Shown: positions 1,735 through 61,262, counted from the stretch's first letter. The stretch: 64,000 nt of DNA from a virus (IMGVR_UViG_3300033747_000014), one strand, 5' to 3'. Translations and numbers: made by a program. The notes: a model not told the origin generated them from the sequence alone.

Positions 1735-2334
1735 TTAAGAAGTCAGTTTATCATAATATTTAAAAACCTCATTCAATTGTTTTTCATCCTTAATTGAGTG
1801 TGTCCACCAATCACCATTTTCGTCAGGTGTTTTTTCATTTTTATCCAACCATCTATGATCAATAACATCTACGTAAAACGTTTTTGGAGTGAATGGAAAT
1901 TCTTTTATGTATTGAGCACTTCCAATATTCTCTCCATTGTGAGTTACACTTCCATTACCTGTAAATCTTCCACCAACATTTCCATCAAATACAATGGCTT
2001 CGATAAAATATGCTTGTCCATCCTCACCATTTTTAAAAACACGGCTATCTCGAATGTTTTGAAAAATTGATTTATCATCATTATATTCACTCATATCCAA
2101 CCACTCACCATCTTCACCTGTCAACGGTGCAAGTGTTTCAAACATCATTAATTTTTTTACAGCTTGAGATATCGCTGTTGCTGTAAATGGTGCAGAACCA
2201 CCACTTTGTCCACTTTTACCAAATGCTTCACATAAAGCAAGTATTTCGTTTTTAAATGGAATAACAATTGCATCTGGAGTTATTTTTTCGAGTAATTCCA
2301 ATTCTCGTTTTGCATGTAATTTTGAATTTGTCAT
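1735..2334 (-). CDS. conserved phage hypothetical protein
   Basis: 199 aa; motifs HAKRELELL, GQSGGSAP and PLTGEDGEW resemble a phage family of unknown function (from memory). Confidence 0.8.
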   Translation of the reverse strand: MTNSKLHAKRELELLEKITPDAIVIPFKNEILALCEAFGKSGQSGGSAPFTATAISQAVKKLMMFETLAPLTGEDGEWLDMSEYNDDKSIFQNIRDSRVFKNGEDGQAYFIEAIVFDGNVGGRFTGNGSVTHNGENIGSAQYIKEFPFTPKTFYVDVIDHRWLDKNEKTPDENGDWWTHSIKDEKQLNEVFKYYDKLTS

Positions 2335-5310: not shown

Positions 5311-5982
5311 TTAAAGTTCTAAAATATATGGTTCCATTTTATCTCCAGTATCACAGAATAATAAATTACCAATATATTCAATATTTTGACCTACTGTATG
5401 ACCAATAATTTGATTATAATCTTTTAATGGATCATTAGTTAAATCATATTTATCAGCCCAAAATATTCCACCAGTAGGGTGACCACCACCTCTTCGAATA
5501 CCAACATCAAATAATGGTTCATATTTACGTTTAAATGCTTCATTTATTTGTTCATCAATTGGTTTATGGGTTAAACCATGAAAACGATTATCAAACCAAT
5601 CTTGTGTTATTCCGGCATGTGAGAAGATGTTATTATCTATTTGATAACATGCTTGGAATAAATCTTTATTATTGTTAAATAAATCATATAAATCAAAATG
5701 CATTTCGGGTCTATATCCTGAACACCCATAAGGATTATTCCAATCATTAGGATGAGCCAACATATATTGATTATCATGATTACCAGTTAATGTAATAACT
5801 TTATCAACATTTTCTTTTTTAAATTTAATAATTTCTTTTAAATTATTAAAAATTTCCACATTAGTTTTTATGTATGAATCAACATAATCACCTAAGAATA
5901 CAACAAGATCGTAATCTAGTTTCTTAACGTGTTTTTTCCATTCATTTCTACCATGAATATCAGCAATTATTAGTACTTTCAT
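5311..5982 (-). CDS. calcineurin-like metallophosphoesterase
   Basis: motifs DIHG, GDYVD, GNHD, HAG and GHT in canonical order. Confidence 0.92.
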   Translation of the reverse strand: MKVLIIADIHGRNEWKKHVKKLDYDLVVFLGDYVDSYIKTNVEIFNNLKEIIKFKKENVDKVITLTGNHDNQYMLAHPNDWNNPYGCSGYRPEMHFDLYDLFNNNKDLFQACYQIDNNIFSHAGITQDWFDNRFHGLTHKPIDEQINEAFKRKYEPLFDVGIRRGGGHPTGGIFWADKYDLTNDPLKDYNQIIGHTVGQNIEYIGNLLFCDTGDKMEPYILEL

Positions 5983-11265: not shown

Positions 11266-12545
11266 TGAAATTAACTTTATGTGTTGAATATATTCAACAT
11301 CACAGGATGAACTACTCCACCCTCTATCCCATCTGCGAAAGCTTTTGGGAATACTTTTCTTGTTATATTTAATGCTCCATTTACATCTGCATTAATTAAA
11401 CAACCTTTACTTGTTTTAAATAAACCTCTCTTTATCCTTCTTCCTAAATATTTTTCTTGTTTCTTCACCTCTTCATTATCTAAAAAACTACATTTTGATG
11501 TATATGATTCGTTTACCATGATATAATCAATTCCATATTCTTTACATTTATTTTCTAACTTTCTCTTAAATAAAAAATAAGGTATCTGAACAAAGGTTTG
11601 ATTATTTACCTTACCTATATTACAATTCTTTTTCCATGTCTCATTATATCCAATAATTATACTACCAATATTATGGTCTATAGAATATTTTATTATTCTT
11701 GATATAATTTGATTAAAATAATTATCAATATAATTATTTCTATTTTTATTTAATATAGAAATCTTTTTAGAATAATGTTTATCGTTACATACTTTTAATT
11801 CTGATTGTATTTGTGATTTCTGTTTGTTGTAAAATTTATTATAAGATTTAAGAGGTTTACCATTCATAGCAAATGAACGTCCAACATTAGAAACACAAGT
11901 TACTAGATTATTAATACCTAAATCAATACCTAATATATTATTTTTATCAAAATTATAATTTTGGTCTATTTTATTTTCTTCATAAACAATATATAAAGAA
12001 TAATAACCATAATTATTAGGTTTGATTATTGCTTGTTTAATTTTACCATCTATTTCATAGGAATAATTTAATTTTAAATCTTTAGTTATTTTTAATTTAC
12101 CTTTCTTCAAAGAAACTTGATCTTGTGGAAGAATAAGGATAAATTCACTATTAGATTTTTTATATTTAGGTTCAGATATATTATCAGCATATCTACCATT
12201 ATTTTTTTGTTTTAATAAATGAAAAAAAGAAACATAATTTTTATCAGCCAATCTCAGTATTTGTTGGGATATTTTAGCAGGAATAGATTTATAATGAATA
12301 TTCGTTTTCATTTCATGATATAATTTATTATAACCTATATAAGAATTAGTTTCTTTATAATAACATTTAATAAAATATAAGGTGGAATTATAAAGAGAAT
12401 TGGAATGTTTACACATTCTCTTCAACTCTATATATTGTGTTTTATTTAAACCTCTTATATTTTGTTTAATCGTTTTCATTGTATTATATAATACCGTTCT
12501 TTAAATATAAATAGTATGAATAATAAAAAAAATACAAGAAATTCA
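11265..12545 (-). mobile_element. non-autonomous solo-tnpB element; no tnpA in the window
   Basis: tnpB flanked by TTCA direct repeats at 11261-11264 and 12542-12545; boundaries are inferred. Confidence 0.55.
11277..12479 (-). CDS. tnpB: IS200/IS605/IS607-type RNA-guided endonuclease TnpB
   Basis: 400 aa; N-terminal HTH (SNSLYN); RuvC motifs GIDLG, VNESYTSK and NADVNGALNI intact. Confidence 0.93.
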   Translation of the reverse strand: MKTIKQNIRGLNKTQYIELKRMCKHSNSLYNSTLYFIKCYYKETNSYIGYNKLYHEMKTNIHYKSIPAKISQQILRLADKNYVSFFHLLKQKNNGRYADNISEPKYKKSNSEFILILPQDQVSLKKGKLKITKDLKLNYSYEIDGKIKQAIIKPNNYGYYSLYIVYEENKIDQNYNFDKNNILGIDLGINNLVTCVSNVGRSFAMNGKPLKSYNKFYNKQKSQIQSELKVCNDKHYSKKISILNKNRNNYIDNYFNQIISRIIKYSIDHNIGSIIIGYNETWKKNCNIGKVNNQTFVQIPYFLFKRKLENKCKEYGIDYIMVNESYTSKCSFLDNEEVKKQEKYLGRRIKRGLFKTSKGCLINADVNGALNITRKVFPKAFADGIEGGVVHPVMLNIFNT

Positions 12546-27233: not shown

Positions 27234-28574
27234 TTAAATTAAATTTTTATTAACAAGATTGTAAAGATAATCACCCATAATTTTAATAGTTGTTTCAGCA
27301 TCTACCCTATTTTTAAAGACTACATCAGTTACAGAAGGATCTTCAACACAACTCATAACAAGAAATTTATTTTGATGACCATCATAAACAATAACAGATC
27401 CATTACAATTTGGGTTAGAATAATCAAAAGACCAACCATTATTAAGGTCTTTGGCAATTACATTAAGTAGGTGTAATGCTTTTTCTTTTTTATTTGCAAA
27501 TCCAAAATATTCAACATCTAATTTATCAGTATATTTTCTTCTTTGGATTTTATACCAATGGTCATGGGTAGTTTTTTTAGATTTAGAAACAAAGAAATCT
27601 CCAATAGAATGTTTTTTGTTATATTGTTTATTTTTATTTTCAATACTAATTAGGATATTTTTAAATTTATCTTTAGAGATTATATCCTTGATATATTTAT
27701 TAGTATTATCAATTAGGAAGAAATAGCAATCATCATCAGGATGGATTATTTCATCATATTGATTAATATGAGCATCTAAATACCATTTATCATTAAGAAC
27801 ATCATAGATTTTAATTGATATATTATTTTTATATTTAAAATAAAGATTTAGATTATCAGAATCAAAACTAAAAGATCCTAAAACATTATCAGGATATTTC
27901 TTTTTAAATTCTTTAATTAGATAACCAACATATTCTTCTTCTTTGATAGGTTTAAAATCCCAATAATTATTACTAAATTCAAGATAATCACTAATATTAT
28001 CTTTATAGAAACATCTACCACTAAATAATATTGTATTATCAACTAAATGCCCAACGTATTTAATATATTTAGAATTTTCAATAATCCATCTTTGTCTGTC
28101 ATACTTACTGGAGAACCAGTTCCAAAAGATATTATTATCTTTGGCAAAATTAACTGGTTTGTTTATATACAGATCAACATCACCAATATTTAAAATAGGG
28201 TGATTAATAGGAACACCATATAAGATTTGGTCTTCATCATAAATTTGAACACCATCAAAAGTAGTAAAAATAGTTTTTTTCCCTATATCACTAAGATCGG
28301 TAATATTTGTTAAATCCCAATTAGATATATTTAATTTTTTAAATAATCCATTAGGAGTAGTAGCAAAAGCCAATGATGAAGAAAAATTAATAGAAGAACC
28401 GCCAAGATGTGTTTTATCTTCTTTTTTAGTATTATTAACGACTCTAAACATATCAGGGTTAAGAGTAATTAGTCTTCGAGTAACTGGAGTATTAGTTCCG
28501 TTAATATTAATAACATCACCTATTTTAATTTTCTTTTGTGATTCGATGAAAAAGTATTCAATATTATCCTTCAT
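27234..28574 (-). CDS. modular hypothetical protein (FxTxDGV family)
   Basis: 446 aa; shared modules. Confidence 0.85.
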   Translation of the reverse strand: MKDNIEYFFIESQKKIKIGDVININGTNTPVTRRLITLNPDMFRVVNNTKKEDKTHLGGSSINFSSSLAFATTPNGLFKKLNISNWDLTNITDLSDIGKKTIFTTFDGVQIYDEDQILYGVPINHPILNIGDVDLYINKPVNFAKDNNIFWNWFSSKYDRQRWIIENSKYIKYVGHLVDNTILFSGRCFYKDNISDYLEFSNNYWDFKPIKEEEYVGYLIKEFKKKYPDNVLGSFSFDSDNLNLYFKYKNNISIKIYDVLNDKWYLDAHINQYDEIIHPDDDCYFFLIDNTNKYIKDIISKDKFKNILISIENKNKQYNKKHSIGDFFVSKSKKTTHDHWYKIQRRKYTDKLDVEYFGFANKKEKALHLLNVIAKDLNNGWSFDYSNPNCNGSVIVYDGHQNKFLVMSCVEDPSVTDVVFKNRVDAETTIKIMGDYLYNLVNKNLI

Positions 28575-34159: not shown

Positions 34160-34901
34160 TCCATTCAGGAATTTGATTATATGGATCAGTCATTTTATTT
34201 CTTGCAATATGTGATTGCATAATTAAAAATTCAACATCTTCTTTGGTGTATAGTCTTTCACCATCATCACCCCATAATTTACCATCGGATTTTCTTTCTG
34301 ATTTTTTCCAAACAAATTCCATATTCCAAATATGTTCAATTTCTCTACCTGTTAGGGAATCTGGTTTTCTTTTGTAATATGTAAGTGCTAAACCATGTTT
34401 TTTCAACATAGAAAGATTATTCCACCATTCCATAGCTTTTTCACGGTCTGTTTTATTAGATGGATGAGTAGGACTTAATGTAGTAGAACCACAATAACAT
34501 CTCTTAGATCCTTCTTCATGGATTGATTTGCAATTTTCACAAATTAGTTTTTTCATATCTTGTTCTCCCTTAATTCTCCAATTATCAATATGAATTTTAC
34601 CAAATCCTTCACAATAAACATAACCTTCATCATCCTGAAGCTTTACTGCTTCATCATAAGGAGTATTAATAATAAACTCATCACTTATTTCTTGAGTGGT
34701 AAGAGTTTTAAATCTATGTGGGTTTAGTTCCACTATTAAATTCTCAATATATTTATTAATATCATAACCACATTCTTTCAAATAAACCAAAGATTTAAAA
34801 TACCCAAGTTCCATTGAAGGTATTATAATTTCAAAGATTTTACCATCAGATAATCTTTTAGCTTTTTTTCCTGTTAGAGTAATTCCATTAATTGTTTTCA
34901 T
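34143..34901 (-). CDS. hypothetical protein with Zn ribbon
   Basis: start trimmed to MKTING; CENC..CYC. Confidence 0.75.
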   Translation of the reverse strand: MKTINGITLTGKKAKRLSDGKIFEIIIPSMELGYFKSLVYLKECGYDINKYIENLIVELNPHRFKTLTTQEISDEFIINTPYDEAVKLQDDEGYVYCEGFGKIHIDNWRIKGEQDMKKLICENCKSIHEEGSKRCYCGSTTLSPTHPSNKTDREKAMEWWNNLSMLKKHGLALTYYKRKPDSLTGREIEHIWNMEFVWKKSERKSDGKLWGDDGERLYTKEDVEFLIMQSHIARNKMTDPYNQIPEWIENNL

Positions 34902-34990
34902 ATCTTGTTTTGTTTTATGATTACAATACAAATATATTACAACTAAATAACCTATGCAAATTATAAGTGTTAAATAATGTTAAAATAAAA

Positions 34991-35021
34991 AAAGGAATAT
35001 AGTATAAAACCATATTCCTTT
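34991..35021 (-). terminator. terminator after the ncRNA array and tRNA-Leu
   Basis: AAAGGAATAT/ATATTCCTTT stem followed by a U-tract on minus. Confidence 0.7.
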
Positions 35022-35058
35022 CTCATCATTAAACCATTAAAACAAAACTATTTGAGAG

Positions 35059-35144
35059 TGCCGAGAACAGGACTCGAACCTGCAAGACCATTACTGATCG
35101 GTAGAGTTTAATTCTACTATGTTTACCAGTTTCATCACCTCGGC
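35059..35144 (-). tRNA. trnL: tRNA-Leu(TAA)
   Basis: GCCGAGG/TCTCGGC acceptor, GTAGA-ATTAAAC-TCTAC anticodon arm, long variable arm, GGTTCGAGTCC T-loop. Confidence 0.9.
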
Positions 35145-35150
35145 ATATAA

Positions 35151-35548
35151 ACAGATGACTATTTTACTACTATCGCTATATCCATTAGTTTTAAAAAAGA
35201 TTGCTGTAAGTCATCTTATGAGATTTTCAAAAGATTTTATTTTTTAAATTTAATTATTAGACAGATTATATCTAAACGATATAAGAGTATATTTATTCCT
35301 CAATTTACTAATAATTAAAAAACAGGTAACTATATTTACGTGTCAATTTAAAAGATTGATGTATATAAATAGTTGCTGTAAGTTACCTTTTACAAGTGAC
35401 AAACGGATTTGAACCGCATCTTTAAATGTTTCAGAATTTAAATTTAACCATAGGGTGGTTGCTGTATGTCACTTTATAGAAACAGATGAGCATTTATTTA
35501 TCCAAATCATATATCAGGTTTTTTTAAATGATTGCTGTTGCTCATCTT
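35151..35548 (-). ncRNA. tandem array of four ACAGCAA stem-closed RNA units
   Basis: units 35151-35217, 35322-35389, 35392-35474, 35482-35548; 8-9 bp covarying closing stems, invariant ACAGCAA, 3' GT. Confidence 0.75.
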
Positions 35549-35625
35549 TTAATTAAGAGGTTGGTAGAAAATATTATCATGAAAACACGCTGACGTTTCA
35601 GGTGACAACCAACCTCTTTATAAAT

Positions 35626-35820
35626 TTAAAAGTTATCTAAAAGATTATTAATCTCTTTTTCAATTTTACTGGTGATGTCTGTATTACCAGATAAATTCTT
35701 ATGGGTTACAAGCATGTTTGTTAATGTTTGCAAAATCCCAACTTTCTTTTCTCTTATAGAAACATTATGTGTTTCATTATTTCTATTTTTAATAGATTCA
35801 ACTAATACATCTTCAGTCAT
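35626..35820 (-). CDS. hypothetical protein
   Basis: ORF after a promoter at ~35845-35875. Confidence 0.65.
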   Translation of the reverse strand: MTEDVLVESIKNRNNETHNVSIREKKVGILQTLTNMLVTHKNLSGNTDITSKIEKEINNLLDNF

Positions 35821-35881
35821 AAATATTTCATTTTTAATTACAGTACAAATATAACTCTTTTATTTTTCCTGTGCAAGTATT

Positions 35882-36196
35882 TTATTGATTTTTTTCAAAA
35901 ATTTCTTTAAGATCATCAATACTTTTCATTTCTTCATTATCAATCCATAAATGAGAATCGAGGTAATTTGTAAAGATACTGATTCTATCTTCCCATTCTT
36001 CATCAAATGGATCTACATCGAATTTATTAAGTGCTGTAAGATATACACTTTCGATAATTGAATTAAAATTATCATCAGATTCAATTTCAACATCCTCAAT
36101 CTCTACATCAAAATTTTTCATTTCTCTTTCAAGAAAATCAACATCGGCATATCCACAATCAAGAAATTCTGTAAGTAGTACTGTCTTAAAATCCAT
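35882..36196 (-). CDS. hypothetical acidic protein
   Basis: own promoter; IFTNYLDSHLW motif. Confidence 0.75.
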   Translation of the reverse strand: MDFKTVLLTEFLDCGYADVDFLEREMKNFDVEIEDVEIESDDNFNSIIESVYLTALNKFDVDPFDEEWEDRISIFTNYLDSHLWIDNEEMKSIDDLKEIFEKNQ

Positions 36197-59896: not shown

Positions 59897-60268
59897 TTAG
59901 TCATTATCAAAAGACACTTCTAACCAATCATTTTTAAGCATATCTGTTTGTGATGGTGACCAACCATTAACGATATTTCCATTAGCATCTTTAAGGCATA
60001 AATATGAAGTGAATTTAATTTTAACACATTCATCTGCCGGATACATTCTTTCACCGTTATCATTTAGGGTATCTTGTTTAAAATATTCTTTAACGTTATC
60101 GGGTAATGATTTTACTTTATCGATAACAGTATCAATATGTATTTCATCATCTGGTCTTAAAAATACAAACATATCTTTACCATTCCAACCTAATCTTTGC
60201 ACCAATTTACCTTTTCTTATTAATTCTAAGGCTTGGCTAAAATTTAAACTATCTTTAAGTATTTTCAT
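59897..60268 (-). CDS. tad2: DUF2829 protein, Thoeris anti-defence Tad2-like
   Basis: FSQALELIRKGKLVQRLGWNGKDMFVFL ... NGWSPSQTDMLKNDW. Confidence 0.8.
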   Translation of the reverse strand: MKILKDSLNFSQALELIRKGKLVQRLGWNGKDMFVFLRPDDEIHIDTVIDKVKSLPDNVKEYFKQDTLNDNGERMYPADECVKIKFTSYLCLKDANGNIVNGWSPSQTDMLKNDWLEVSFDND

Positions 60269-60827: not shown

Positions 60828-61262
60828 TTATTTTCTATTATTCCACATTTCGACTACTTTATGATATGAGTTACAATTCCAATCAGCACCATCTTGTAGA
60901 TAACAATCCTCATTAGTACATCTTATATCATAGTATATTTTATTAATATCACAATCACCTATACCTTCACGTTCTAATTTTTCAGCATTAGAACCACAAA
61001 AAGGACAAGGTAATAAATTAAAAACATCACACTCATTCATGTATTTACAGGTTGCACACCAATGACCTATTGGGTTTTTAAATTTAATATGTGGATTTAA
61101 ACAACCATTATTATTAGATTGATTTGAATCCTCCATTTGATTGAAACATTTTTCAAACTGTTCTCCAAGGTCTTCATTATTATAATCACAATCGTACCCA
61201 ATTGGTTTTTCATCCATCCAATCCAAATACATTGTTATTATTTGAGATATTGTATATTTCAT
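60828..61262 (-). CDS. protein with C-terminal Lar (restriction alleviation)-like Zn domain
   Basis: LLPCPFCGS...IRC...C...WNNRK. Confidence 0.7.
   Translation of the reverse strand: MKYTISQIITMYLDWMDEKPIGYDCDYNNEDLGEQFEKCFNQMEDSNQSNNNGCLNPHIKFKNPIGHWCATCKYMNECDVFNLLPCPFCGSNAEKLEREGIGDCDINKIYYDIRCTNEDCYLQDGADWNCNSYHKVVEMWNNRK

What the first reader, a model, noticed from the sequence alone, without database searches (positions are those of the whole stretch)
35151..35616. Tandem array of four ACAGCAA handle-plus-payload RNAs upstream of tRNA-Leu, one unit tRNA-like
Seen on the minus strand: each unit is an 8-9 bp closing stem, then (T/A)ACAGCAA, a variable ~40-60 nt interior, the complementary strand, and GT. 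The stems covary fully: AGATGACT/AGTCATCT, AGGTAACT/AGTTACCT, AAGTGACA/TGTCACTT, AGATGAGC/GCTCATCT. The interiors are unrelated. Unit 35392-35474 carries a tRNA-type T-arm (GCGG-TTCAAAT-CCG) and an anticodon-like hairpin TTTAAAT-TCTGAAAC-ATTTAAA (8-nt loop containing GAA). A further 9-bp-closed hairpin (GAGGTTGGT/ACCAACCTC, 35557-35616) lies upstream. The array is co-oriented with tRNA-Leu and ends at one terminator. Inference: processed small RNAs with a fixed protein-binding handle. They could be Y-RNA-like partners of a Ro60/TROVE protein encoded elsewhere, tRNA-mimic decoys against anticodon nucleases, or a guide-type array.
Basis: partly seen in the sequence, partly recalled or inferred. 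Interest (0 to 1): 0.8.

Follow-up and report, generated by a model that had tools for sequence, protein, structure and literature searches.

The report
Phage Ro60-partner small RNA array
A giant phage of Bacteroidota carries four back-to-back small RNA genes that share one short docking "handle". The handle travels with a Ro60-like ring protein across very different phages and matches, down to its end nucleotides, the unexplained "Class I" RNAs of Dictyostelium social amoebae.

Summary
Four minus-strand units (35151-35549) each have an 8-9 bp closing helix, then (U)ACAGCAA, a 39-57 nt unrelated interior, the complementary strand and GU. The chance of such a stem plus GU is about 0.002 per ACAGCAA site.

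They are most likely Y-RNA-like partner RNAs of a Ro60-like protein.
- The same handle lies within 8 kb of a DUF2828/DUF7788 gene in all 8 gene-positive cultivated phages I examined.
- It is absent from 4 phages that lack the gene.
- KVP40, picked as a negative control, had both the gene and the RNAs.
- This genome encodes such a protein (573 aa) about 78 kb away. Its model matches Ro60 at Z 20.5.
- A further handle copy encloses that gene's start codon. ACAGCAA is kept there in two reading frames in relatives, which suggests autoregulation.

The handle matches Dictyostelium Class I RNAs in stem, CUUACAGCAA, AAG start and CUGU end (Rfam RF01414, 29 and 26 bits, below threshold).

The guide-array idea found no support. 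The interiors of units B and C imitate tRNA arms.

This scan has noted the RNA family before in at least 16 other genomes. I found no publication describing it.

The parts
35846..35875 (-). Bacteroidota-type promoter (TTG, then TATATTTG). It is the nearest upstream promoter for the array.
   Evidence: The next promoter of this type on this strand is at 34936-34929, beyond the terminator.
35626..35820 (-). 64-aa ORF between the promoter and the RNA array, probably on the same transcript.
   Evidence: It is also called as a gene on the ENA contig (L001 2755-2949). It was not searched against any protein family library or database here.
35556..35617 (-). Hairpin closed by a 10-bp stem, with no ACAGCAA. 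Role unknown.
   Evidence: -19.3 kcal/mol, z -4.15, 0 of 200 shuffles fold as well.
35482..35549 (-). Unit A: handle (AAG start, 9-bp stem, ACAGCAA, CUGU end) with a 39-nt interior.
   Evidence: R1 66.3 bits; it is in the training set.
35392..35476 (-). Unit B: handle with a 57-nt three-hairpin interior. It has a T-arm-like hairpin (loop UUCAAAU) and an 8-nt loop UCUGAAAC.
   Evidence: R2 only 14.1 bits because of the long insert. The fold gives z -2.35.
35322..35390 (-). Unit C: handle CUUACAGCAA. The interior has an anticodon-arm-like hairpin, UCAAU-CUUUUAA-AUUGA.
   Evidence: RF01414 26.2 bits; R1 67.6 bits.
35219..35321 (-). 103-nt spacer. It holds AUAAUCUGU, the same 3' handle half as in the permuted tRNA mimic, so it may be a decayed unit.
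   Evidence: Inference only.
35151..35218 (-). Unit D: handle CUUACAGCAA with a 40-nt interior. It ends 6 nt before tRNA-Leu.
   Evidence: RF01414 29.0 bits, E 0.0039; R1 65.6 bits.
35058..35144 (-). tRNA-Leu(UAA), co-transcribed with the array. Its 5' maturation would free the 3' side of unit D.
   Evidence: (48.2 bits).
34988..35024 (-). Intrinsic-terminator-like hairpin with a U tract that ends the transcription unit.

Best explanation
The four units are genes for small RNAs of about 67-84 nt. They are probably made as one transcript: promoter near 35850, a 64-aa ORF, a hairpin, units A to D, tRNA-Leu, then the terminator. The transcript would then be cut into single RNAs.

Each RNA has two parts.
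- A constant handle: a terminal helix whose outer A-U and G-C pairs are fixed, the unpaired ACAGCAA next to it, and a 3' GU.
- A variable module.

The handle is the docking site for the phage's own Ro60-like ring protein, a 573-aa DUF2828/DUF7788-type protein encoded about 78 kb away. The variable modules, some imitating tRNA arms, give the particle different contacts. The likely contacts are host enzymes that act on tRNA or structured RNA, in the service of counter-defence or RNA repair.

A sixth handle wraps the start codon of the protein's own mRNA. This suggests the protein represses its own translation once free handles run out.

What is shown:
- the anatomy and covariation of the handle;
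- co-occurrence of handle and gene across phages;
- the Ro60 fold of the protein;
- the handle at the start codon.

What is inferred: transcription, processing, binding, autoregulation and the cellular targets.
For: 1. The terminal helix covaries. On 16 units from 4 phages, 93.7% of cells pair against about 40% when partners are slid, and 7 of 8 pairs show changes on both sides.

2. Handle RNAs lie within 8 kb of a DUF2828+DUF7788 gene in Felix O1, Listeria LMSP-25, Aeromonas 4_4572, Prevotella Lak-B1, Mycobacterium BigCheese, Bacillus FADO, Campylobacter F371 and Vibrio KVP40.
- In whole-record searches of Felix O1, LMSP-25 and 4_4572, all hits below E 1e-4 lie within about 5 kb of the gene, with one exception.
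- The Lak-B1 and F371 units were found by eye or pattern scan only; model R2 missed them.

3. T4, T5, Carin-5 and phiKZ have neither the gene nor a hit below E 0.01. KVP40 was picked as a negative control and turned out to have both.

4. This genome encodes P0122.
- PF25043 at E 9.8e-11 and PF11443 at E 0.003.
- The MIDAS motif DxSxS is conserved.
- AF2 model pLDDT 83.7.
- The ten best PDB matches are all Ro60: Z 13.4-20.5, 1YVP at rmsd 4.4 A over 430 residues. The next matches are vWA-only at Z 9.7 or less.

5. A handle encloses the P0122 start codon (AG-AUG-UU, CG, ACAGCAA ... AACAUCU-GU).
- The same stem and ACAGCAA are kept in 3 relatives of 53-55% identity.
- ACAGCAA is read in two different frames there (MFDSK and MFTAK).
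- Model R2 scores these sites at 21-29 bits.

6. All five relatives of P0122 that I examined have strong unit arrays 0.1-1.9 kb downstream of the gene.

7. A permuted handle sits inside a tRNA-shaped gene of the same genome.

8. A published lead: Bas63 gp130, a Felix O1-type protein, has a Ro60 fold, lies upstream of the tRNA genes and counters the ppl defence system (PMC11482910). The window is rich in anti-defence genes such as Tad3 and Tad2-like.
Against: - No RNA data of any kind exist for this phage, so transcription, the RNA ends and abundance are unknown.
- No DUF2828-type protein has been shown to bind any RNA.
- In this genome the gene and the array are about 78 kb apart, unlike in every other case I examined.
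- The handle lacks the features of canonical Ro60 sites (a long bulged helix; the CGAA motif of phiLo Yrl RNAs). No Rfam Y-RNA model matches.
- The start-codon handle is degenerate in 1 and absent from 1 of the 6 loci of the subfamily. The N-terminal peptide MF..K..LF stays conserved there, so part of that signal is at protein level.
- Model R2 was trained partly on units A, C and D. Their high scores follow from that and prove nothing.
Confidence: 0.7

Rival explanations
1. The handle is a processing or stability signal read by a nuclease or another factor, not by the Ro60-like protein. The units would be spacer or precursor elements of tRNA operons. The linkage to the DUF2828 gene would reflect only shared residence in tRNA and RNA-repair regions.
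For: - The units sit in tRNA clusters, or directly before a tRNA, here and in Felix O1 and LMSP-25.
- A handle at the 5' end of an mRNA could equally be a stabiliser or a cleavage site.
- No binding data exist.
Against: - The handle is the same in phages of Proteobacteria, Firmicutes, Actinobacteria, Campylobacterota and Bacteroidota, whose RNases differ. This favours a phage-encoded reader.
- tRNA-rich phages without the gene (T4, T5) have no handles.
- BigCheese has three units next to the gene, and no tRNA is annotated in the 7.4 kb around them.
Confidence: 0.12
2. The units are stand-alone tRNA-mimic decoys, for example against anticodon nucleases or tRNA-modifying defence enzymes. They would act without the Ro60-like protein, and the handle would serve only folding or export from the precursor.
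For: - Unit C shows UCAAU-CUUUUAA-AUUGA, the geometry and loop of a tRNA-Lys(UUU) anticodon arm.
- Unit B shows a T-arm-like hairpin and a GAA-containing loop.
- Other phages carry T-arm and acceptor pieces in their payloads.
- The genomic neighbourhood is anti-defence.
Against: - Units A and D, and most units in other phages, show no tRNA part I could recognise.
- This idea does not explain the invariant ACAGCAA, its linkage to the protein gene, or the copy on the gene's start codon.
- A single AT-rich 7-nt loop match can arise by chance.
Confidence: 0.1
3. A guide-type array: the interiors base-pair with nucleic-acid targets, and the handle loads them into an effector.
For: - The layout is constant handle plus variable insert.
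- The genome carries a CRISPR-Cas locus and TnpB genes.
Against: - Exact matches of the interiors to about 113 kb of this genome are no longer than those of shuffled interiors (12-15 nt).
- The interiors are internally structured.
- The constant part is 7 nt plus a covarying stem, not a repeat.
- No cas or TnpB gene lies next to the array.
- The host genome could not be tested.
Confidence: 0.03
4. DNA-level elements: folded recombination sites like the attC-type hairpins of the integron-like island elsewhere in this genome.
For: - They are inverted repeats of similar size.
- An earlier scan note reports an integron-like cassette island 30 kb before the window.
Against: - There are no cassettes between the units, which are 1-5 nt apart.
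- The conserved box is asymmetric and on one strand only.
- The units are always co-oriented with tRNA genes and the Ro60-like gene.
- One copy lies inside a coding start, and a permuted copy lies inside a tRNA-shaped RNA.
Confidence: 0.02

Closest known systems
Dictyostelium Class I RNAs (Rfam RF01414; Aspegren 2004, Avesson 2011, Kjellin 2021 = PMC7919456)
   Same: - A short terminal helix joins the 5' and 3' ends. Its structure is conserved, not its sequence.
- The motif CCUUACAGCAA sits directly after the 5' half. Units C and D carry CUUACAGCAA.
- The RNA starts AAG and ends CUGU.
- The interior is variable, with an A-rich stretch before the 3' half.
- There are many paralogues per genome.
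- The Dictyostelium-trained model hits units D and C (29.0 and 26.2 bits) and three Aeromonas phage units (28-30 bits). These exceed the 25-bit working cut-off of Kjellin et al..
   Different: - The scores are below Rfam's gathering score of 41.5.
- The units are 67-84 nt, not 42-65 nt.
- They form a tandem polycistronic array behind a bacterial-type promoter, with no DUSE element.
- The host is a phage of Bacteroidota.
- The only known direct binder in Dictyostelium is the RRM protein Rnp1A, not a Ro60-like protein.
- Common descent versus convergence is open.
Y RNAs bound by Ro60/Rsr: Deinococcus Yrn1, Salmonella and mycobacterial YrlA (Chen 2014, PMC4201824), Yrl1/Yrl2 of Thermus phage phiLo (PMC12135203)
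   Same: - Small RNAs whose paired 5' and 3' ends form the protein site, with a variable second module that is sometimes tRNA-like.
- They are encoded beside or with a ring-shaped TROVE+vWA-fold protein.
- Phage examples exist.
- The partner here has the Ro60 fold (Z 20.5).
   Different: - The protein belongs to DUF2828/DUF7788, not Pfam TROVE, with 9-12% identity to Ro60.
- The handle is an 8-9 bp helix plus unpaired ACAGCAA, not a long bulged helix or a CGAA motif.
- No Rfam Y-RNA model matches.
- There are up to 10 or more paralogous RNAs per genome.
Bas63 gp130 / Felix O1 ORF86 (PhageMaP preprint, PMC11482910)
   Same: - It is the same protein family (PF11443+PF25043).
- It is reported to have a Ro60 fold, to lie directly upstream of the tRNA genes and to counter the ppl defence system.
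- The authors guessed that some of the 'tRNA genes' are Y RNAs.
   Different: - That work did not identify the RNAs.
- In Felix O1 the handle RNAs are four unannotated units between the tRNAs, not the annotated tRNAs.
- In the present genome the gene and the array are far apart.

Membership tests
Dictyostelium Class I RNA (RF01414) | Short helix joining the 5' and 3' ends, conserved in structure and not in sequence | tested here: met
   There are 8-9 bp in all four units, with different sequences. Covariation across phages is shown.
Dictyostelium Class I RNA (RF01414) | 11-nt motif CCUUACAGCAA directly after the 5' half of the stem | tested here: met
   Units C and D match 10 of 11 positions (CUUACAGCAA). 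Units B and A keep (U/A)ACAGCAA.
Dictyostelium Class I RNA (RF01414) | Conserved termini: AAG at the start and CUGU at the end | tested here: inconclusive
   The DNA of every unit reads (A)AAG...CUGU or UUGU (Kjellin 2021). The real RNA ends have not been mapped.
Dictyostelium Class I RNA (RF01414) | Score at or above Rfam's gathering threshold (41.5 bits) | tested here: not met
   Units D and C score 29.0 and 26.2 bits. Units A and B have no hit at E 10 or below.
Dictyostelium Class I RNA (RF01414) | Length 42-65 nt and an own DUSE promoter about 60 nt upstream | tested here: not met
   The units are 67-84 nt and 1-5 nt apart. One Bacteroidota-type promoter lies about 300 nt upstream of unit A.
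Dictyostelium Class I RNA (RF01414) | Binds Rnp1A (CIBP); restricted to Dictyostelia | not testable with these tools
   The source is a phage of Bacteroidota: TAnnTTTG promoters and phage-type genes.
Y RNA (Ro60/Rsr partner; YrlA type) | A Ro60-fold protein is encoded in the same genome | tested here: met
   P0122 matches 1YVP_A at Z 20.5, rmsd 4.4 A, 430 residues. The ten best PDB matches are all Ro60. The gene lies about 78 kb from the array.
Y RNA (Ro60/Rsr partner; YrlA type) | Canonical Ro-binding helix (long bulged stem; CGAA-type motif in phage phiLo), or a match to a Y-RNA model | tested here: not met
   No Y-RNA family appears among the matches at E 10 or below over 34900-35900. The stem is short and unbulged, and the motif differs.
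Y RNA (Ro60/Rsr partner; YrlA type) | A second module that mimics tRNA | tested here: inconclusive
   Unit B has a T-arm-like hairpin and unit C an anticodon-arm-like hairpin. Units A and D have none. No tRNA caller accepts any unit.
Y RNA (Ro60/Rsr partner; YrlA type) | Physical binding to the Ro60-type protein | not testable with these tools
   There are no RNA-protein tools or data.
Phage stem-ACAGCAA handle RNAs beside DUF2828/DUF7788 genes (unpublished family, defined operationally) | Covarying terminal helix followed by ACAGCAA; recognised by a model that had not seen the sequence | tested here: met
   R1 was built from window, Felix O1 and Listeria units. It found 7 held-out Aeromonas units. 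R2 found held-out units in BigCheese, FADO and KVP40 and in five relatives of P0122. Window units A, C and D were in the training set.
Phage stem-ACAGCAA handle RNAs beside DUF2828/DUF7788 genes (unpublished family, defined operationally) | A DUF2828/DUF7788 gene in the same genome, usually within 8 kb | tested here: met
   The gene is present, but adjacency is not met for the array (about 78 kb). One further handle lies on the gene's own start codon.
tRNA | Cloverleaf accepted by ARAGORN or Rfam RF00005 | tested here: not met
   Only tRNA-Leu at 35058-35144 is called.

The most novel reading that the evidence does not exclude
The stem-ACAGCAA RNAs and DUF2828/DUF7788 proteins may form a second, ancient class of Ro60/Y-RNA-type particles shared by phages, bacteria and eukaryotes. 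The Class I RNAs of Dictyostelium would be its eukaryotic members. Their long-sought function would then run through a Ro60-fold partner. DUF7788-named proteins dominate the AlphaFold-cluster matches, but organisms were not shown there, so their presence in eukaryotes rests on my recollection of the accessions. In phages the particle would be a modular adaptor: one handle and many payloads, turned against host defence or RNA damage, and self-limited by a handle on the protein's own start codon.
Probability: 0.25. Interest if true: 0.9.

Novelty: new variant of a known kind. Interest (0 to 1): 0.75.

Why it matters
1. It assigns partner RNAs to a very large, unstudied protein family.
- The family has 710 hits among cultivated phage records and more than 2,000 metagenomic relatives of each query.
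- One member already has a counter-defence phenotype.
- This makes the mechanism testable in Felix O1 and Bas63 on E. coli.

2. It offers a concrete hypothesis for the Dictyostelium Class I RNAs, which have had no mechanism since 2004: look for a Ro60-fold binder of the handle.

3. It explains many unannotated gaps and 'pseudo-tRNAs' in phage tRNA clusters.

4. The handle on the start codon suggests a simple autoregulatory circuit. It can be tested with a reporter, and it would be direct genetic evidence for the protein-handle interaction.

Tried and rejected
- No whole genome is held. The genome search cannot read the ENA contig. An exact-pattern scan and a neighbour-protein scan of viral contigs found nothing.
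- I therefore walked the ENA contig 10 kb at a time. The roughly 160 kb beyond the window's right flank remains unread.
- The window itself holds no DUF2828-like ORF.
- The 446-aa ORF beside tRNA-Met (27234-28574) showed no sequence similarity to DUF2828 proteins: no Pfam hit, no BLASTP or HMM match, nothing clear in the protein atlas. It was not folded.
- Searching with the Lak-B1 protein could not pick out this genome's copy among 2,049 hits.
- The single-sequence AF2 model of P0122 was useless (pLDDT 36.8). An alignment-based model worked.
- Sequence searches of the PDB with P0122 or a family profile found no Ro60. Only the fold comparison did.
- AlphaFold-cluster matches carried no organism names, and the Swiss-Prot set held no Dictyostelium entry. 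Whether Dictyostelium has a DUF2828/DUF7788 protein is untested.
- Avesson 2011 is not held, so the other three Class I-binding proteins remain unknown to me.
- The interiors show no excess complementarity to 113 kb of this genome. A first version of that script timed out.
- MAFFT misaligned the 3' stems of short units. I fixed this by building R1 from 8 well-aligned units and re-aligning to the model.
- R2 missed the Lak-B1 and Campylobacter units, which I found by eye or pattern scan.
- One literature search on 'TROVE' was wasted on the common word.

Full report
**What is there.**
On the minus strand between 35549 and 35151 lie four units of one design. Each unit reads: (A)AAG, an 8-9 bp stem half, 0-1 nt, ACAGCAA, an unrelated interior of 39-57 nt, the exact complement of the stem half, then GU.
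- The four stems differ in sequence and are fully Watson-Crick paired.
- Four of the window's nine ACAGCAA sites fall in these 340 nt on one strand.
- In random sequence of local composition only 0.235% of ACAGCAA sites have such a stem plus GU. Four out of four is therefore far beyond chance.
- The units are separated by 5, 1 and 103 nt. The last one ends 6 nt before tRNA-Leu(UAA) at 35144-35058.
- A hairpin with a 10-bp closing stem lies upstream at 35617-35556 (z -4.15).
- The only terminator-like hairpin follows the tRNA at 35024-34988.
- The nearest upstream promoter of the host's type (TTG, about 20 nt, TATATTTG) is at 35875-35846, before a 64-aa ORF. The next one is beyond the terminator.

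The likely transcription unit is therefore promoter, small ORF, hairpin, units A-C, spacer, unit D, tRNA-Leu, terminator. This is inference, since no RNA data were available.

**Source.**
The window is 24-27% GC with tightly packed small ORFs. It carries TnpB, DUF932 and Tad3 genes and Bacteroidota-type promoters, and I saw no Shine-Dalgarno sequence before the two ORF starts I read.
- The same DNA occurs on ENA contigs of 136 and 275 kb.
- One of its proteins is on record from a 299-kb contig.
- It is a jumbo phage of a Bacteroidota host, as earlier notes of this scan also say.
- The array is identical in three assemblies.

**First lead: Dictyostelium Class I RNAs.**
A permissive Rfam scan matched units D and C to the Class I RNA family (RF01414) at 29.0 and 26.2 bits, below the gathering score of 41.5. 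The likeness goes beyond the score. Kjellin et al. (PMC7919456) define Class I RNAs by four features:
- a short terminal stem conserved in structure but not sequence;
- an 11-nt motif next to the 5' half (CCUUACAGCAA in the Rfam consensus);
- a conserved AAG start and CUGU end;
- a variable remainder.

All four units show each of these features in their DNA. What they lack is the DUSE promoter, the 42-65 nt size and the organism. They are therefore not members of that family as it is defined, but they are built the same way.

**Second lead: a Ro60-like protein.**
Earlier notes of this scan claim that stem-ACAGCAA RNAs accompany a Ro60-like DUF2828 protein in many phages. I tested this independently.
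- Felix O1 has a PF11443 gene (ORF86) directly before its tRNA cluster. Four unannotated units sit in gaps between the first tRNAs.
- tblastn with ORF86 finds 710 phage records across Proteobacteria, Firmicutes, Actinobacteria, Campylobacterota, Fusobacteria and Bacteroidota hosts.
- Listeria LMSP-25 has three units just before the gene. Aeromonas 4_4572 has about ten before it. Prevotella megaphage Lak-B1 has two.

I then built two covariance models.
- R1 was built from 8 units of three phages. It recovered seven held-out Aeromonas units.
- R2 was rebuilt from 16 units.
- On these 16 units the terminal helix pairs in 93.7% of cells against about 40% for slid partners. Seven of eight pairs show double changes. 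One caveat applies: the alignment was fitted to the model.

Whole-record searches gave the following.
- In Felix O1, LMSP-25 and 4_4572, every hit below E 1e-4 lies within about 5 kb of the gene, with one exception.
- Held-out gene-positive phages behave alike. BigCheese has three units right after the gene and FADO several before it. Campylobacter F371 has two before it, found by pattern scan only.
- Of five phages picked as negatives, T4, T5, Carin-5 and phiKZ have neither a PF25043 gene nor an R2 hit below E 0.01.
- KVP40 unexpectedly has an R2 hit at E 5e-11, and it turned out to carry the gene 7-8 kb away.

The tally is 8 of 8 gene-positive and 0 of 4 gene-negative records. The sample is small, but one of the cases was a blind prediction.

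**The partner in this genome.**
The window has no such gene. Walking the ENA contig leftwards reached a 573-aa ORF, P0122.
- It lies about 42.5-44.2 kb before the window's start, on the window's plus strand, about 78 kb from the array.
- It matches PF25043 (E 9.8e-11) and, weakly, PF11443 (E 0.003). It has the architecture of Felix O1 ORF86 and a conserved MIDAS DxSxS motif.
- An AlphaFold model built on 42 homologues has pLDDT 83.7.
- Its ten best PDB matches are all Ro60: Xenopus, human, Thermus phage phiLo and Deinococcus. Z runs from 13.4 to 20.5 (1YVP_A: rmsd 4.4 A over 430 residues). The next matches are vWA-only domains at Z 9.7 or less.
- Reviewed Ro60 proteins also lead the Swiss-Prot structure search.
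- By sequence it is not a TROVE protein.

**A handle on the protein's own start codon.**
R2 hits the first 65 nt of the P0122 ORF. The site reads AG-AUG-UU as the 5' stem half, then CG, ACAGCAA, 44 nt, and AACAUCU-GU.
- Three relatives of 53-55% identity keep the same stem halves (one with a G-U pair) and ACAGCAA.
- In two of them ACAGCAA is shifted by one base relative to the AUG. The peptide then reads MFTAK, not MFDSK.
- Conservation of the nucleotides across two reading frames points to an RNA-level constraint.
- R2 scores these sites at 21-29 bits.
- Residues 1-22 are disordered in the model.
- Two further relatives with other N-termini have a degenerate handle or none. The feature is therefore frequent (4 of 6) but not universal, and the peptide itself is also conserved.

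The simplest reading is translational autoregulation: the protein binds a copy of its RNA site that contains its own start codon. This is inferred, not shown. All five relatives carry strong unit arrays 0.1-1.9 kb downstream of the gene. Adjacency is thus the rule, and the present genome has moved its array next to tRNA-Leu.

The same genome also holds a tRNA-shaped gene whose anticodon region is replaced by a circularly permuted handle. In order, it reads 3' half, loop, 5' half, ACAGCA. This shows that the handle is a transplantable module.

**Payloads.**
- Unit B folds into three hairpins inside the handle, including a T-arm-like GCGG-UUCAAAU-CCGU and a loop UCUGAAAC.
- Unit C holds UCAAU-CUUUUAA-AUUGA, the geometry and loop of a tRNA-Lys(UUU) anticodon arm.
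- Units in Felix O1 and the Aeromonas phage contain T-arm and acceptor pieces.
- Units A and D show nothing I could recognise.
- The interiors show no excess complementarity to 113 kb of this genome, so a guide role is unsupported.

**Mechanism proposed.**
By analogy with Ro60 and Y RNAs, the handle would dock on the Ro60-like ring, and the payload would recruit or block a second factor.
- In the known systems the paired RNA ends bind the ring and a second module tethers an effector such as PNPase. In phage phiLo the particle dampens host PNPase (PMC12135203).
- The one functional datum for this protein family is that Bas63 gp130 counters the ppl defence system (PMC11482910).
- The array lies in a region dense with anti-defence genes, including Tad3, Tad2-like and Lar-like. 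Gad2 and an RNA ligase lie on the left arm.

I therefore favour a role in counter-defence or in tRNA and RNA damage control, at moderate confidence.

**Literature and novelty.**
I found no paper that describes the ACAGCAA handle in phages or links Class I RNAs to Ro60-like proteins. DUF2828 is mentioned in five papers, none of them functional.
- Within this scan the family has been reported repeatedly on other DNA.
- This report adds an instance where the array and the gene are far apart, a blind control test and the start-codon handle.
- Against published knowledge it is a new variant of the Ro60/Y-RNA kind.
- Whether the likeness to Dictyostelium reflects common descent is open. It is the most interesting untested point.

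Noticed in passing
window 1735-2334 (-), about 59897-60268 (-) and about 60828-61262 (-): Precomputed Pfam hits to Tad3 (PF25185), Tad2-like (PF11195) and Lar_restr_allev (weak). The window is an anti-defence-rich early region. On the left arm outside the window lie Gad2, GmrSD_N, a radical SAM protein, an R2K ligase and a Cas3/Cas7fv/Cas6 locus.
   Followed up: no
L020:2128-2196 (+), about 44.2 kb before the window's start: A handle copy encloses the start codon of the Ro60-like gene. ACAGCAA is kept in two reading frames in relatives (L029, L030, L031), degenerate in L032 and absent in L033. This suggests translational autoregulation.
   Followed up: yes
L017:13063-13185 (+), about 10.2 kb before the window's start: A tRNA-shaped gene whose anticodon region is replaced by a circularly permuted handle (AUAAUCUGU, UUUU, AAGAUUAU, UAACAGCAU). 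ARAGORN does not call it.
   Followed up: partly
window 35219-35321 (-): The 103-nt spacer between units C and D contains AUAAUCUGU, the 3' handle half seen in the permuted mimic. It may be a decayed unit.
   Followed up: no
window 35556-35617 (-): A strongly folding hairpin with a 10-bp closing stem and no ACAGCAA, at the head of the array. Its role is unknown.
   Followed up: partly
L019:6955-8262, about 28.5-29.8 kb before the window's start: A 435-aa protein with weak RNA-ligase hits (PF09414, PF21189), followed by a 344-aa ORF with no family. It is a possible RNA-repair partner of the Ro60-like system.
   Followed up: no
L009:6428-6979 and L009:3941-4039 (Listeria phage LMSP-25): A ROOL RNA match (88.5 bits, just under its threshold of 99.1) and a drum RNA match (50.2 bits, above 43) lie inside the tRNA region, next to the handle RNAs and the DUF2828 gene.
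   Followed up: no
L010:5494-5610 (Aeromonas phage 4_4572): The Rfam tRNA model matches 117 nt (49 bits), overlapping a handle unit at 5543-5630. This is another tRNA-shaped RNA that carries the handle.
   Followed up: no
Vibrio phage KVP40, NC_005083: 168343-168909 and 176009-176724: KVP40 carries a DUF7788 gene (E 2e-47) and two handle RNAs (E 5e-11 and 5e-4) 7-8 kb away on the same strand.
   Followed up: partly
window 11277-12479 (-), plus two copies just outside the window: Three different TnpB (OrfB_IS605) genes of 393-404 aa lie within about 70 kb of this phage genome.
   Followed up: no
one search hit list: Close relatives of the Lak-B1 DUF2828 protein occur on many gut metagenome contigs of about 100 kb as well as on megaphage-size contigs. 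The protein is widespread in phages of gut Bacteroidota.
   Followed up: no
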